A stretch of 64,000 nt of DNA from Eledone cirrhosa (Eukaryota): the NCBI GenBank assembly GCA_964016885.1, contig CAXHJY010000235.1, forward strand, positions 1 to 64,000. The letters run 5' to 3'. The notes beneath the pieces are model-generated. The model saw only the letters and a program-made list of their open reading frames with translations, searched no databases and was not told where the DNA came from. Below, one piece after another: positions 6,014-57,919 of the stretch. Each line of letters starts with the position of its first letter. Position 1 is the stretch's first letter. The translations under genes and the position numbers were made by a program.

Positions 6014-6158
6014 TATTTAACGATCGTTTCTAGGATATATATGTGTTAGAATTGGCATGCATATTCAACAGATCTATGTACAAAATTATACAAAATTATA
6101 CAAACTATCAAGATTAAATATACATACCAAACACACACATATGCCGTCTTCAGAAATA
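6014..6158 (-). ncRNA. Type I hammerhead ribozyme with about 115-nt extended stem II (solo PLE pLTR-like unit, about 5950-6160)
   Basis: Minus strand reads tattt-CTGAAGA-[long hairpin]-GAAAC-gatc-GTT-aaata. Stem I is tattt/aaata and the stem III region is the palindrome AACGATCGTT. The stem II arms pair extensively, with G-U wobbles. Confidence 0.75.
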
Positions 6159-7240
6159 TATATATATATATGTGTGTGTGTATATATATATATATATATA
6201 TATATGTGTGTGTGTGTGTATATATATATATATATATATGTGTGTGTGTGTATATATATATATATATATATATGTGTATATATATATATATATATATGTG
6301 TATATATATATATATATATATGTGTATATATATATATATATATATATATATATATATATGTGTATATATATATATATATATATGTGTATATATATATATG
6401 TGTGTATATATATATATATATATATATGTGTATATATATATATATATATATATATATATATATATGTGTGTGTGTATATATATATATATATATGTGTGTG
6501 TGTATATATATATATATATATGTGTGTGTATATATATATATATGTGTGTGTGTATATATATATATATATATGTGTGTGTGTATATATATATATATATATA
6601 TGTGTGTGTGTATATATATATATATATATATGTGTGTGTGTATATATATATATATATATATGTGTGTGTGTATATATATATATATATATATGTGTGTGTA
6701 TATATATATATATATATGTGTGTGTGTATATATATATATATATATGTGTGTGTGTATATATATATATATGTGTGTGTATATATATATATATATGTGTGTG
6801 TATATATATATATATATATATATGTGTGTGTGTGTATATATATATATATATGTGTGTGTATATATATATATATATGTGTGTGTGTATATATATATATATG
6901 TGTGTGTGTATATATATATATATATGTGTGTGTGTGTATATATATATATATGTGTGTGTATATATATATATATATGTGTGTGTGTGTGTATATATATATA
7001 TATATATATGTGTGTGTGTGTATATATATATATATATATATGTGTGTGTGTATATATATATATGTGTGTATATATATATATATATATATGTGTGTATATA
7101 TATATATATATATGTGTATATATATATGTGTATATATATATGTGTATATATATATATATATATATGTGTGTGTATATATATATGTGTATATATATATATA
7201 TATGTGTATATATATATATATAAATGTATATGTATATATA
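6159..7240. repeat. Compound (TA)n/(TG)n microsatellite
   Basis: Seen directly. Confidence 0.98.
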
Positions 7241-7449
7241 GTATTAAGTATACTATTTATGGTTATGCAAATACAAAAACCTTTTGTAGTTATATATATT
7301 TTTTTAAACCCTAAATAGTGGTAGGCAGTAATGTATTACTACCTTATTACCAGTAAGTTAAATAGCTCAATGTAATAACATCAGATGATTTACCGAGCAG
7401 TTATATGAATTATAAGAATCAAAGAACTGTTCAAAACATTTTTATCCTT

Positions 7450-8643
7450 CTTTACATTTACGTGGATACCAAGTCTAATCACCCTAGATCAATATTAAAC
7501 TCTATCTCTAAGGGGGTATCCAATAGAATCTCTAATCTATCCTATGACGCAAACATATTTAGCAAAAACTCGCAATATTATAATCAAGCATTAGCTATAA
7601 TTTAGAGATTGAGTTCCTACCTAAGAAAACACATAGCTACAACATCATCTCGCACAATATGTCCATGGGGAAACCTAGTAATATGAATAGCAACCACATG
7701 CACACTAAAGCGGAGGGTGCCACCAAAAGTAACCATTACCACAGAAACTACTGTAGTACATTAGGAGGAAACAACACACCAGACACTAAAAACAAAAATA
7801 GAAGAAATAATACATTTTTCCACCCTCCTTTCAACCTAAACGTCTCCACCAACATACCTAGGGCTTTCTTCTCACTACTAGATAAAAACTTCCCTCTAGG
7901 ACACAAGTACCATAACCTTTTAAACAAAAACATTATTAAAATCTCATACTCTACGACGCCTAACTTAGCATACCACATAGCTAGCAGCAATAAAAGTAAA
8001 ATTAATTCTTACTTCCAACAAACGAAATCACAACAGGAGGTAAACCTTCAAAATACCTCTGTAGCAAGCAACCCTAATAACGGCAGTAATAATAGAAATA
8101 ACACTAGTATAAGAAATAACACCGGGGTCGACAACCCAAATGTCCAAAATCCTATAGCTACCACCCGGACTTCTGCACAGCATTATAACCAGCAGACTAA
8201 CACCCAGGATAATTGTAACTGTATAGCTAATAGAACCTGCCCTTTAGATAATAAATGCCTAACCAAGGATATCATATACTCTTGCACCGTCACAACTAGC
8301 AACTCTTCAGAAACCTATGTAGGCTCCACTTCTAACTGCTTCAAAATCAGATATAATTCGCACATCCACTCGTTCAAAAAGCACAGTCTAGCTAACTCCA
8401 CCTCACTATCTAGCTACATACACTATCTAAAAACTAAAAATAAACCATACACACTCAAATGGGAAGTGATAGGCAGCGCGACTTCGTACAAACCACCTAA
8501 TAAATTTTGTAACCTCTGTATACTAGAGACCCACACTATTATTTTCTCTAACCGTAACCTACTTAACAAAAAAATCTGAAGTGTTTGCAACTTGCCAGCA
8601 CCGCTTCAGACATTCCTTCCAAAACTTTAAGCCCAATATATAG
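7450..8643 (+). pseudogene. PLE ORF C-terminal half: RT thumb/linker plus GIY-YIG endonuclease, with frameshifts
   Basis: YVDTKSNHPRSIL, FHPPFNLNVSTNI, KISYSTTPN, CNCIANRTCPLDNKC, DIIYSC..TYVGST..FKIRYNSH, LKW, CNLC and LLNK, then after an A-run frameshift near 8570 SEVFATCQH. The frame is also broken near 7605-7660. Confidence 0.88.
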
Positions 8644-55112: not shown

Positions 55113-56115
55113 CTGGTGGTGGTAGTGGTTGTATGGAGGCGTGGTGGTGGTGGTGTGGTGGTGGTGGTGGTTTTATGGAGGTGTGGTGGTGGTGGTGGTT
55201 GTATGGAGGTGTGGTGGTGGTGGTGGTTTTATGGAGGTGTGGTGGTGGTGGTGGTTGTATGGAGGTGTGGTGGTGGTGGTGGTTGTATGGAGGTGTGGTG
55301 GTGGTGGTGGTTGTATGGAGGTGTGGTGGTGGTGGTGGTTGTATGGAGGTGTGGTGGTGGTGGTGGTGGTAGTGGTTGTATGGAGGTGTGGTGGTGGTGG
55401 TGGTGGTAGTGGTTGTATGGAGGTGTGGTGGTGGTGGTGGTTGTATGGAGGTGTGTAGGTGGTGGTGGTGGTAGTTGTTGTGTGGCAGCGTGGTGGTTAT
55501 GGTTGTTGTGGTATGGAAGTGTGGTGACGGTAGTGGTTGTTGTGGTATGGAAGTGTGGTGACGGTAGTGGTGGTTGTGGTATGGAAGTGTGGTGACGGTA
55601 GTGGTGGTTGTGGTATGGAAGTGTGGTGGTTGTGGTATGGAAGTGTGGTGACGGTAGTGGTGGTTGTGGTATGGAAGTGTGGTGACGGTAGTGGTGGTTG
55701 TGGTATGGAAGTGTGGTGACGGTAGTGGTGGTTGTGGTATGGAAGTGTGGTGACGGTAGTGGTGGTTGTGGTATGGAAGTGTGGTGACGGTAGTGGTGGT
55801 TGTGGTATGGAAGTGTGGTGACGGTAGTGGTGGTTGTGGTATGGAAGTGTGGTGACGGTAGTGGTGGTTGTGGTATGGAAGTGTGGTGACGGTAGTGGTG
55901 GTATGGTATGGAAGTGTGGTGACGGTAGTGGTGGTTGTGGTATGGAAGTGTGGTGATGGTAGTGGTTGTTGTGGTATGGAAGTGTGGTGGTTGTGGTATG
56001 GAAGTGTGGTGATGGTAGTGGTTGTTGTGGTATGGAAGTGTGGTGACGGTAGTGGTGGTATGGAAGTGTGGTGATGGTAGTAGTGGTGGTAGTGGTGGTT
56101 GATGTGGAAGTGTGG
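55113..56115. repeat. G-rich minisatellites: 28-bp unit (55113-55460) then 34-bp unit (55500-56110)
   Basis: ggttgtatggaggtgtggtggtggtggt and ggtatggaagtgtggtgacggtagtggtggttgt. Confidence 0.95.
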
Positions 56116-56488
56116 TGGGAAATAAAATAGCAGCAGTGGTAGCTTGGCTGGTGCTAGCTTAATGGTGTAGGCAGTAGCATGCTGGTGGTGGCCATGATAT
56201 GAAACTATAGTAATGAAGGTGGTAGCAGCATAGTGGCGGTGGTGGTGGAATTGCTCTCCATCAGTTTCAATGAGTGTCCTCAGCATGGTCATAATCAAAT
56301 GACTGACACCAATAAAAGTTTTTAAAAGTGTGTATACAGTATATAGGTGTATGTGTGTGTATATATATAGATGTGTAGATCTTTGAGTGTATATATGTGT
56401 AGACGTGTGTATATATATAAATATTTATATAGATGTGCGTGTGTGTATATATATATATATATATATATATATATATATATATATATAT

Positions 56489-56736
56489 ATGTAGATGAGT
56501 GCGTATATGTAGATGAGTGCGTATATGTAGATGAGTGCGTATATGTAGATGAGTGCGTATATGTAGATGAGTGCGTATATGTAGATGAGTGCGTATATGT
56601 AGATGTGTGCGTATATGTAGATGTGTGCGTCTATGTAGATGTGTGCGTCTATGTAGATGTGTGCGTCTATGTAGATGTGTGCGTCTATGTAGATGTGTGC
56701 GTCTATGTAGATGTGTGCGTCTATGTAGATGTGTAG
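56489..56736. repeat. 18-bp tandem repeat, about 13 copies
   Basis: gtagatgagtgcgtatat changes to gtagatgtgtgcgtctat along the array. Confidence 0.95.
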
Positions 56737-57919
56737 ACGTGTGTGTGTGTGTCAGAGAGAGAATTCATCAATGTTTTATGGTAAAGATCTGCAAATAGTG
56801 TATCAGTGGTGGGAAGGTGGGGTCGTTATCAACAGTAGTGAAAACAAGACTGCTATTTGGATTAGTTCTAAGTAGAAAGAAGGCTTCTATATAAACACAT
56901 GTATTAATTCTTTACCTTCTTTCACTTTGTGTGTATATACACACACACACACACACACACACACACACACACACGGTGTGTATGTGTGTGTGTGTGTGTT
57001 GCCTTCCACTTCATTTATATATATACATTCACACTCATGCACATACTGTCACACACACACACATGCATAAATGTATGAAGTAAAACCTTATTGTCTTCCT
57101 CTTCATTTTGTTTTTCCCAACCTTCTCTTTCTTTGTGAACTTTGCTATTTTCTGAAGGACTTTTGTCTGACATGTTGAAACCCTCAGTTAAGTCTTCCTT
57201 CGCGTGAACCTAATAAAACTGTGCTTTTGTATCTGTGTTTGTCTTGTTTATTCTTGAACTAATTGTGTGTGTGTGTAAACAAGCTCATGTGTTTAGAAGA
57301 CAGCAGTGATTGAAATTTTAAAACTGAATTAGTTGCTAGCAGGGTAGGACATGCTATCGCTTTATGAGAGCTCAGGTTGGAAGATCGTGTCTTGCTCACA
57401 TAGAACTGATTTTGGCTTGGCTTCTACGGCTGGATACCTTTACTAACGCCAACCACATTCACAGTATGATATATATACATACCTACATTTTAATGTCCGC
57501 TTTGCCTGATAGCAAGGGTTGGACTATATACAGTTATATCATCATCATTTTTACTTCGACTTTTCATGTTAGATGGAAATATTTGAGAATGTTTTACAGC
57601 TGGATGCCTTTTCTGATACCAACTATTTTAGTCGCATCTCGTGACATACTGGGATACAGTGTACCTATTCTAAACTGAATACACAGTTACACTTTAAATA
57701 TATATGGTTACATCATCATCATCTACTGTACTATTGCTGTTCTGCCTTTATTTCTTCAAGTTGGTCATTTTTAAACTAGGTTAATTCAAAAGCTTGTCTG
57801 ATGTTCTCTTTGAAGTTTCCCATGAATATACATTCATTTCACATCTGCTTCTTTCATGCTATTTCATTCTCCTGCATCTAAAATATTCGCTGTTTATCAT
57901 GTTATTTGGTTTTTGAAGA

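What the first reader, a model, noticed from the sequence alone, without database searches (positions are those of the whole stretch)
6014..57260. A dense, heterogeneous family of HHR-tail mini-elements (candidate PLE-driven retrozyme-like system)
Seen: at least five sequence-unrelated units share the plan [HHR core]-[AT-rich tail]-[simple repeat]: 6158-6014(-), 10059-10105(+), 33955-34040(+), 34254-34243(-) and 49396-49240(-). Weaker ones lie at 26165-26640, 42726-42812 and 57145-57260. Three have stem II insertions of 60-135 nt. Only one is linked to an ORF (GIY-YIG). Inference: several PLE lineages, or non-autonomous ribozyme RNAs mobilised by them, are colonising TA microsatellites, leaving about one ribozyme relic per 10 kb. 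Covariance models built on short stem II would probably miss the long ones.
Basis: partly seen in the sequence, partly recalled or inferred. Interest (0 to 1): 0.78.

Follow-up and report, generated by a model that had tools for sequence, protein, structure and literature searches.

The report
Truncated Penelope retrotransposon hammerhead ends
Most of these self-cutting-RNA motifs are real but decayed, and they are likely the broken-off tail ends of a known group of jumping genes (Hydra-type Penelope elements) that land in TA repeats; three have an unusually long side arm whose activity is untested.

Summary
Partly confirmed, largely ordinary. The unit at 10059-10105 is the 3' hammerhead of a 5'-truncated Hydra-clade Penelope-like element (CxCX5C linker, GIY-YIG, no CCHH) inserted in TA arrays with an inverted copy of its tail at the other end. 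The unit near 34254 has the same two-armed layout. The plan hammerhead-tail-(TA)n is the normal Hydra 3' end: 40 of 79 related loci show the hammerhead 128-578 nt behind the ORF. Units 6153(-) and 33957(+) have perfect 5' cores and long helix II (116 and 61 nt; 2 seen, 0.06 expected in shuffles); 49395(-) is probable; 26171/26378/26535 are related minimal-hammerhead relics; 42726 and 57152 are not above chance. None of the nine copies matches the Hydra pattern intact. Whether the long-arm units come from coding elements or non-coding families could not be decided (no genome held). A GCTC...GAGC hairpin 31-58 nt behind the cut site (22 of 28 relatives) lies between the two copy ends and likely positions the reverse transcriptase. 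This scan has already reported the same system, long arms and hairpin on other DNA of this genome.

The parts
7330..7449 (-). Left (inverted) arm of the Hydra-clade insertion: copy of the tail from the predicted cut site on, then the GCTC...GAGC hairpin (7398-7361), ending near 7330
   Evidence: 45-nt inverted repeat 7405-7449 / 10101-10145, 98%; hairpin; 686 of 920 molecules of run X7 end at 7330, with diverse letters beyond
7450..8600 (+). 5'-truncated, frameshifted Hydra-clade PLE ORF: RT thumb piece (7456-7596), linker CxCX5C, GIY-YIG endonuclease without CCHH
   Evidence: BLASTP 43% over 47 aa and 38% over 128 aa to P0082; GIY-YIG E 0.012; alignment A1; motifs as in PMC8557442 section 11
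8580..10058 (+). Long 3' untranslated region (about 1.48 kb) with an imperfect fold-back at about 8660-9030
   Evidence: repeated in run X1 in 30 of 30 bins, no single contig spans it; fold; relatives have 128-578 nt here
10059..10147 (+). Unit 2: Hydra-type type I hammerhead (U4 changed to C), predicted cut after 10101, 46-nt tail into a TA array
   Evidence: model R2 E 1e-4; score 33.7, 1 of 200 shuffles reach 30
5950..6158 (-). Unit 1: type I hammerhead with perfect core and 116-nt helix II (44 pairs, 7 G-U), predicted cut after 6019, T-rich tail, TA arrays on both sides
33922..34078 (+). Unit 3: hammerhead with 61-nt helix II, predicted cut after 34036, tail into an ATT repeat; starts behind (AT)25
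   Evidence: relatives in run X1 read a perfect palindrome in helix III
34191..34326 (-). Unit 4, main arm: 3' hammerhead half (GAAA 34254-34251, predicted cut after 34243), likely a compact helix II at 34267-34255 with a broken 5' core, 52-nt tail into (TA)5
34327..34437 (+). Unit 4, inverted arm: copy of the tail, GCTC...GAGC hairpin at 34371, ends in a TA repeat
   Evidence: 36-nt inverted match 34191-34226 / 34327-34362; hairpin; depth profile
49190..49395 (-). Unit 5: probable Hydra-type hammerhead cut off inside its 5' core by (TA)13, helix II region about 134 nt, 54-nt tail into TA
   Evidence: third-best 3' half in the window, 7 of 200 shuffles have three such halves; fold not above shuffles
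26165..26660 (+). Three related minimal-hammerhead relics (26171, 26378, 26535) with T-rich tails, last one ending in (TA)8
   Evidence: comparison with the minimal form of PMC4209133 is by eye
57145..57260 (+). Possible fourth, more decayed member of the 26165 group; not above chance on its own
42714..42816 (+). 47-bp dimer with hammerhead-like words; not above chance

Best explanation
These units are likely the 5'-truncated 3' ends of several Penelope-like retrotransposon families, mostly Hydra-type, which their endonuclease likely inserts into TA microsatellites. Shown: one end is joined to a Hydra-clade ORF; two insertions carry an inverted second copy of the tail; the short ends stop 46-54 nt behind the predicted cut site and the long ends about 120-127 nt behind it, with a conserved hairpin between. 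Inferred: the enzyme nicks both strands of a TA run, starts reverse transcription at two internal sites either side of that hairpin, and mostly stops early, so that thousands of hammerhead-plus-tail stubs pile up and decay. The hammerheads would cut as dimers through their palindromic helix III; a long helix II is likely a tolerated family-specific insertion. The copies in this window are likely inactive relics, unit 1 being the nearest to intact.
For: Hydra motifs in the ORF. 40 of 79 related metagenome loci (35 of 52 with 300 nt or more downstream) carry a type I hammerhead 128-578 nt behind the ORF match, with strong covariation (147 two-sided changes, 0 of 500 shuffles; alignment selected for pairing). 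Of 59 distinct outside hammerhead copies, 21 run into (TA)4+ within 220 nt: 10 at 29-57 nt, 10 at 92-127 nt, 1 at 72; window units 2, 4, 5 end at 47, 50, 54. GCTC...GAGC lies 31-58 nt behind the cut site in 22 of 28 relatives (shuffled tails 0.36) and in the window occurs, apart from one palindrome near 675, only in the two inverted arms. Summed contig depth climbs towards the 3' ends: 5-24 thousand over the ORF against 184 thousand over the hammerhead end; 2 to 23 to 91 to 267 thousand across unit 4. Inverted 5'-truncated copy, one-sided tail, (TA)n targets and an Octopus Hydra family are in PMC8557442; two internal start sites explain the tail in PMC11167929; single dispersed hammerheads are read as truncated PLEs in PMC4209133.
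Against: Units 1, 3, 5 and the 26165 group could not be traced to an ORF. None of the 40 outside Hydra hammerheads has a helix II region above 36 nt, so the long-arm units differ from typical coding Hydra ends. The depth gradient could also come from short non-coding families sharing the end: 377 reads of X7 carry other sequence before 10058. Unit 1 ends at +71, in neither main end class, and shows no GCTC hairpin. The 1.48-kb gap between ORF and hammerhead is longer than in any relative, and no contig spans it.
Confidence: 0.7

Rival explanations
1. The long-arm units (1, 3, 5) and part of unit 4's family are monomers or stubs of non-coding retrozyme-like families, 200-600 nt long, that are copied in trans by Hydra-type enzymes. 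This can hold together with the best explanation for unit 2.
For: No ORF next to them; long structured helix II kept in unit 3's relatives (majority letters at 33981, 33983 and 33988 restore pairs, read by hand); several X1 contigs of 303-338 nt carry unit 3 at one end; retrozymes derive from PLE ends (bioRxiv 10.64898/2026.07.22.740005); earlier notes of this scan describe such families in this genome (unchecked leads).
Against: No tandem array of intact hammerheads in the window; letters upstream of unit 3 agree only 0.51 among 27 contigs, which fits neither a fixed start nor a shared body clearly; truncated coding elements give the same picture.
Confidence: 0.25
2. Most units are chance look-alikes picked from an AT-rich, repeat-rich window.
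For: Loose descriptors find as many hits in shuffles as in the window; Rfam finds no hammerhead at its gathering scores; units 4, 5, 26535, 42765 and 57140 fold no better than shuffles; the best-scoring 3' half in the window (56201) has no 5' core.
Against: Unit 2 E 1e-4; units 1 and 3 beyond 200 shuffles; relatives of unit 3 read a perfect palindrome and unit 4 has the two-armed layout. Holds only for 42726 and perhaps 57152.
Confidence: 0.05

Closest known systems
Hydra clade of C-terminal EN+ Penelope-like elements, incl. Hydra-1_Obim of Octopus bimaculoides (Craig et al. 2021, PMC8557442; seen: passages, section 11, supplement files S1 and S2)
   Same: CxCX5C linker, GIY-YIG without CCHH, 3' type I hammerhead with near-palindromic helix III and often an extra base on each side of helix II, (TA)n targets, inverted truncated copy and one-sided tail
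   Different: The hammerhead listed for Hydra-1_Obim differs in sequence from every unit here (by eye); 3' region here is 1.48 kb whereas listed elements are under about 3 kb in all; helix II loops listed for Hydra are 3-10 nt, not 60-130; no tail hairpin appeared in the parts read
Minimal hammerheads of metazoan PLEs (Cervera and de la Pena 2014, PMC4209133; seen: parts 1-2 of 4)
   Same: Thousands of heterogeneous single motifs per genome in several families, read as truncated PLEs; palindromic helix III, predicted dimers; the 26165 group fits this form
   Different: Helix II of 6-8 bp there; no cephalopod in the parts read
Metazoan non-LTR retrozymes (Cervera and de la Pena 2020, PMC7229834, passages; Li, Clavereau and Pollet 2026, bioRxiv 10.64898/2026.07.22.740005, parts 1-3 of 5)
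   Same: Non-coding, type I hammerhead, related to PLE ends, solo monomers occur
   Different: Defined by tandem units with complete hammerheads and circular RNA; neither is shown in this window
Poseidon element of Anolis, PAc (Frangieh et al. 2024, PMC11167929; seen: parts 1-2 of 4)
   Same: Two internal reverse-transcription start sites explain the two copy ends; both DNA strands are cut and extended; AT-rich targets
   Different: Other clade; start sites in an AC-rich stem-loop inside the ORF start; hammerhead cleavage was not needed for insertion in vitro

Membership tests
Hydra-clade PLE (insertion 7330-10147) | C-terminal GIY-YIG endonuclease behind the RT thumb | tested here: met
Hydra-clade PLE (insertion 7330-10147) | Linker CxCX5C in place of CX2-5CxxC | tested here: met
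   C211-N-C213-X5-C219 invariant in 14 of 14 rows; definition
Hydra-clade PLE (insertion 7330-10147) | No CCHH motif in the endonuclease; CxxC and CxH near the conserved E and N | tested here: met
   (C309-x-x-C312); CxH lies in the next frame behind an A run near 8570
Hydra-clade PLE (insertion 7330-10147) | RWK and DKT motifs and RT core phylogeny | not testable with these tools
   the copy lacks the RT core; its full-length relatives P0002-P0004 carry RWK-like and DKT motifs
Hydra-clade PLE (insertion 7330-10147) | Sense-strand 3' hammerhead and (TA)n target | tested here: met
   U4 is mutated in this copy
Hydra-clade PLE (units 1, 3, 4, 5) | Link to a Hydra ORF | not testable with these tools
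   no genome held; loose ends show only 30 letters
Hydra-clade PLE (unit 4) | Inverted tail copy, two ends, tail hairpin | tested here: met
Type I hammerhead ribozyme | Complete core CUGANGA / GAAA / UH with three helices | tested here: inconclusive
   core letters complete in units 1 and 3 only; unit 1 has two unpaired bases before GAAA, unit 3 a decayed helix III and 2-bp helix I; not met in units 2, 4, 5 and the weak units
Type I hammerhead ribozyme | Self-cleavage at the UH site | not testable with these tools
   needs an in vitro assay
Non-LTR retrozyme | Tandem units, each with a complete hammerhead | tested here: not met
   the three 26165 copies and the 42714 dimer have broken cores; tested in this window only
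Non-LTR retrozyme | Non-coding family unit and circular RNA | not testable with these tools
   no genome and no RNA run available

The most novel reading that the evidence does not exclude
Octopus-type genomes hold non-coding hammerhead families whose helix II has grown into a 60-130-nt double-stranded arm that still allows dimeric self-cleavage, and Hydra-type reverse transcriptases pick up both these and their own RNAs through one conserved GCTC...GAGC tail hairpin that sets the two start sites of copying: a compact, TA-targeting, programmable RNA-to-DNA writer.
Probability: 0.3. Interest if true: 0.6.

Novelty: new member of a known kind. Interest (0 to 1): 0.3.

Why it matters
As it stands it adds families to a known clade and warns annotators: these stubs are invisible to Rfam (0 hammerhead hits in the window and in 20 of 20 loci with intact Hydra hammerheads) and the two-armed ones look like MITEs. 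If the tail hairpin is the signal for the two copying starts, it gives a direct handle on the open question of how Penelope-like elements choose their RNA and make inverted ends; long-arm hammerheads would widen the known tolerance of helix II. Both points were already raised by earlier notes of this scan, so this window adds little beyond independent checks in 79 outside loci.

Tried and rejected
Rfam at gathering: tRNA only; at E 10 the listed 150 of 416 rows held no hammerhead. A strict type I descriptor found only a chance hit inside a LINE. Model R1 had a mis-registered structure and was discarded; R2 replaced it. My first reading of unit 4 as a long-arm hammerhead with a core at 34321 was dropped: X1 relatives show no change that would give CUGANGA there. 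A MITE reading of 34191-34362 was dropped for the Hydra tail hairpin and the unequal arms. A hammerhead-like word at 8944(+) was rejected: it lies in a long fold-back. 56201(+) and 21272(+) score like hammerhead halves but lack support. A-to-I editing of unit 1 was considered: 7 G-U pairs, G on the 5' arm each time as listed for the outer stem, but no relatives were laid to test it. Look-ups of four units and of the PLE by sequence in earlier findings gave nothing. No RNA holder listed. The 26165-type pattern was absent from 79 of 79 Hydra loci. Literature searches showed no paper on 60-130-nt helix II in PLE hammerheads or on the tail hairpin; Lunse et al. 2017 and Arkhipova et al. 2017 were not read, and preprint supplements were not seen.
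Full report
Setting. The window is animal DNA rich in TA microsatellites, LINE pieces and tRNA-derived repeats. Its organism is not given; earlier notes call it octopus-type, which fits the repeat content (my inference). No whole genome is held, so family-level evidence came from two read overlays and 79 outside loci.

Observation. Rfam finds no hammerhead at gathering scores. By hand and by script all five main units show part of a type I hammerhead; only units 1 (6153-) and 3 (33957+) have all core letters. 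A descriptor that needs a perfect core and a helix II closing the whole insert finds exactly these two, against 0.06 in 200 local dinucleotide shuffles, none reaching 2 (written after seeing the units). Unit 1's 116-nt helix II region folds into 44 pairs, z -5.4, and only on the hammerhead strand. Unit 2 (10063+) is the single significant hit of a model built from 33 outside hammerheads (E 1e-4) although U4 is mutated. Units 4 and 5 have the Hydra-type 3' half (ranks 4 and 3 in the window; 13 and 7 of 200 shuffles reach those counts; the top rank, 56201, looks like chance) but lack a 5' core. At loose thresholds the window holds no more hammerhead-like hits than shuffles, so the density of one per 10 kb cannot be shown by motif counts; it rests on five or six individually supported loci in 64 kb.

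The ORF-linked unit. 7450-8600 encodes an RT-thumb piece and, after a frameshift, a linker and GIY-YIG domain. The linker is CxCX5C, the CCHH motif is absent and CxxC and CxH flank the end: the definition of the Hydra clade (PMC8557442 section 11), whose families insert in (TA)n, carry canonical hammerheads and include Hydra-1_Obim. A 45-nt inverted repeat (7405-7449 / 10101-10145, 98%) ties the hammerhead tail to the truncated ORF start, so both belong to one insertion between two TA arrays. The inverted arm begins at the predicted cut site within a base or two; one case, so this may be chance. The stretch is repeated in run X1 in 30 of 30 bins, with summed depth 5-24 thousand over most of the ORF, 1-7 thousand over much of the 3' region and 184 thousand at the hammerhead end (the tool warns that depth is no copy number; least-covered flank bins were 34-88). 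377 X7 reads carry other letters before 10058, so a sister family shares this end.

What a normal Hydra end looks like. Of 79 related metagenome loci, 40 have a type I hammerhead behind the ORF (35 of 52 with at least 300 nt downstream); several of the other 17 have one with small departures. Distance 128-578 nt, helix II region 10-36 nt. In 22 of 28 loci with enough sequence a GCTC...GAGC hairpin follows 31-58 nt behind the cut site (0.36 in shuffled tails). Among 59 distinct copies, the 21 that run into (TA)4+ do so at 29-57 nt (10), 72 (1) or 92-127 nt (10). So hammerhead, AT-rich tail, simple repeat is simply the short end of a Hydra insertion. Rfam missed these hammerheads in 20 of 20 loci.

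The other units against that baseline. Units 2, 4 and 5 meet TA at +47, +50 and +54. Both inverted arms in the window carry the hairpin (7398-, 34371+) and end near +120 (7330, where 686 of 920 X7 molecules end) and +127 (34437). Unit 4 is therefore a miniature two-armed insertion, 34191-34437; other copies join the arms at other places (34292/34331, 34293/34394), as variable 5' truncation predicts. Its depth falls from 267 thousand in the tail to 2 thousand 80 nt upstream. Majority letters (34255 in X1 58% and X5, but about 2-3% in X7 and X8; 34261; 34269) give a compact 4-bp helix II, and 34 X1 contigs show a 4-base helix I strand just upstream, with two core bases missing between; this is read by hand and whether the most abundant subfamily has a full core is not known. 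Unit 3's relatives read a perfect palindrome in helix III (71 contigs), and majority letters restore an inner hairpin of the long helix II, so the long arm is a family trait and this copy is decayed; upstream letters agree only 0.51. The 26171/26378/26535 copies are related to each other and resemble the minimal hammerheads of PMC4209133 (by eye); each core is broken.

Mechanism. Shown: Hydra ORF joined to unit 2; two-armed layout in two insertions; two end classes around a conserved hairpin; TA flanks. From literature: PLE proteins cut both strands of AT-rich DNA and start at two internal sites that match the genomic tail, and hammerhead cleavage is protein-assisted and not needed for insertion in vitro (PMC11167929); PLE hammerheads with palindromic helix III cleave weakly and as dimers (PMC4209133). 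Inferred: a Hydra-type enzyme binds the tail hairpin, primes from both nicked strands of a TA run, and usually stops within 50-200 nt. Not shown: cleavage, transcription, and the parents of units 1, 3 and 5.

Comparison and novelty. Dispersed, heterogeneous hammerhead families from truncated PLEs (PMC4209133), Hydra elements in Octopus (TA)n (PMC8557442), 31 recently active Penelope-like families in O. vulgaris (PMC13282606, passages) and retrozymes as PLE derivatives (bioRxiv 2026) are in print. Helix II is usually 4-5 bp and 6-8 bp is called long (PMC13725137, passages); I found no paper on 60-130-nt arms in PLE hammerheads or on the tail hairpin in seven searches, but two key papers were not read. 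Earlier notes of this scan report the same system, the long arms and the hairpin on other pieces of this genome; I found the hairpin before seeing those notes. Verdict: new members of a known kind, interest 0.3.

Noticed in passing
window 8660-9030 and 8715-9670: The 3' region of the Hydra element holds a long imperfect fold-back (C-rich then G-rich arm); one X1 contig joins 8708 to 9669, so some relatives lack about 960 nt of it.
   Followed up: partly
window 6145-6034 (-): Unit 1's long helix has 7 G-U pairs and folds only on the hammerhead strand; could be RNA-level selection or A-to-I editing written back to DNA.
   Followed up: partly
window 3003-4193, 10854-12115, 12891-14300, 34480-35790: Several 5'-truncated copies of one LINE family (RTE-like by recall; 74-93% alike) ending in short (ATC)n tails next to TA arrays; their 3' ends are also shared with many short repeats.
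   Followed up: no
window 388-735 (-): Fragment of another non-LTR reverse transcriptase (Pfam RVT_1, E 2.6e-6) cut by the TA array at 776.
   Followed up: partly
window 34096-34179: Tail of a separate very abundant repeat (summed depth up to 289 thousand, ending in ATT repeats) stacked between units 3 and 4; also present in organism B's run.
   Followed up: partly
window 50988-55003 and 55114-56118: 46-bp and 34-bp CCA-rich minisatellite followed by a TGG-rich array on the opposite sense, together a large imperfect inverted structure.
   Followed up: no
window 48515-48564, 60067-60114, 61672-61759, 38585-39043: Short perfect or near-perfect palindromes and a fold-back pair of a dispersed repeat.
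   Followed up: no
window 5520-5577 (+): tRNA-like head (Rfam tRNA, 31 bits) of a likely SINE inserted in the TA array.
   Followed up: no
L021, L027, L034, L076, L003: Metagenome loci with a hammerhead at both ends of the Hydra ORF (pLTR-ORF-pLTR): candidates for complete elements to test in vitro.
   Followed up: no
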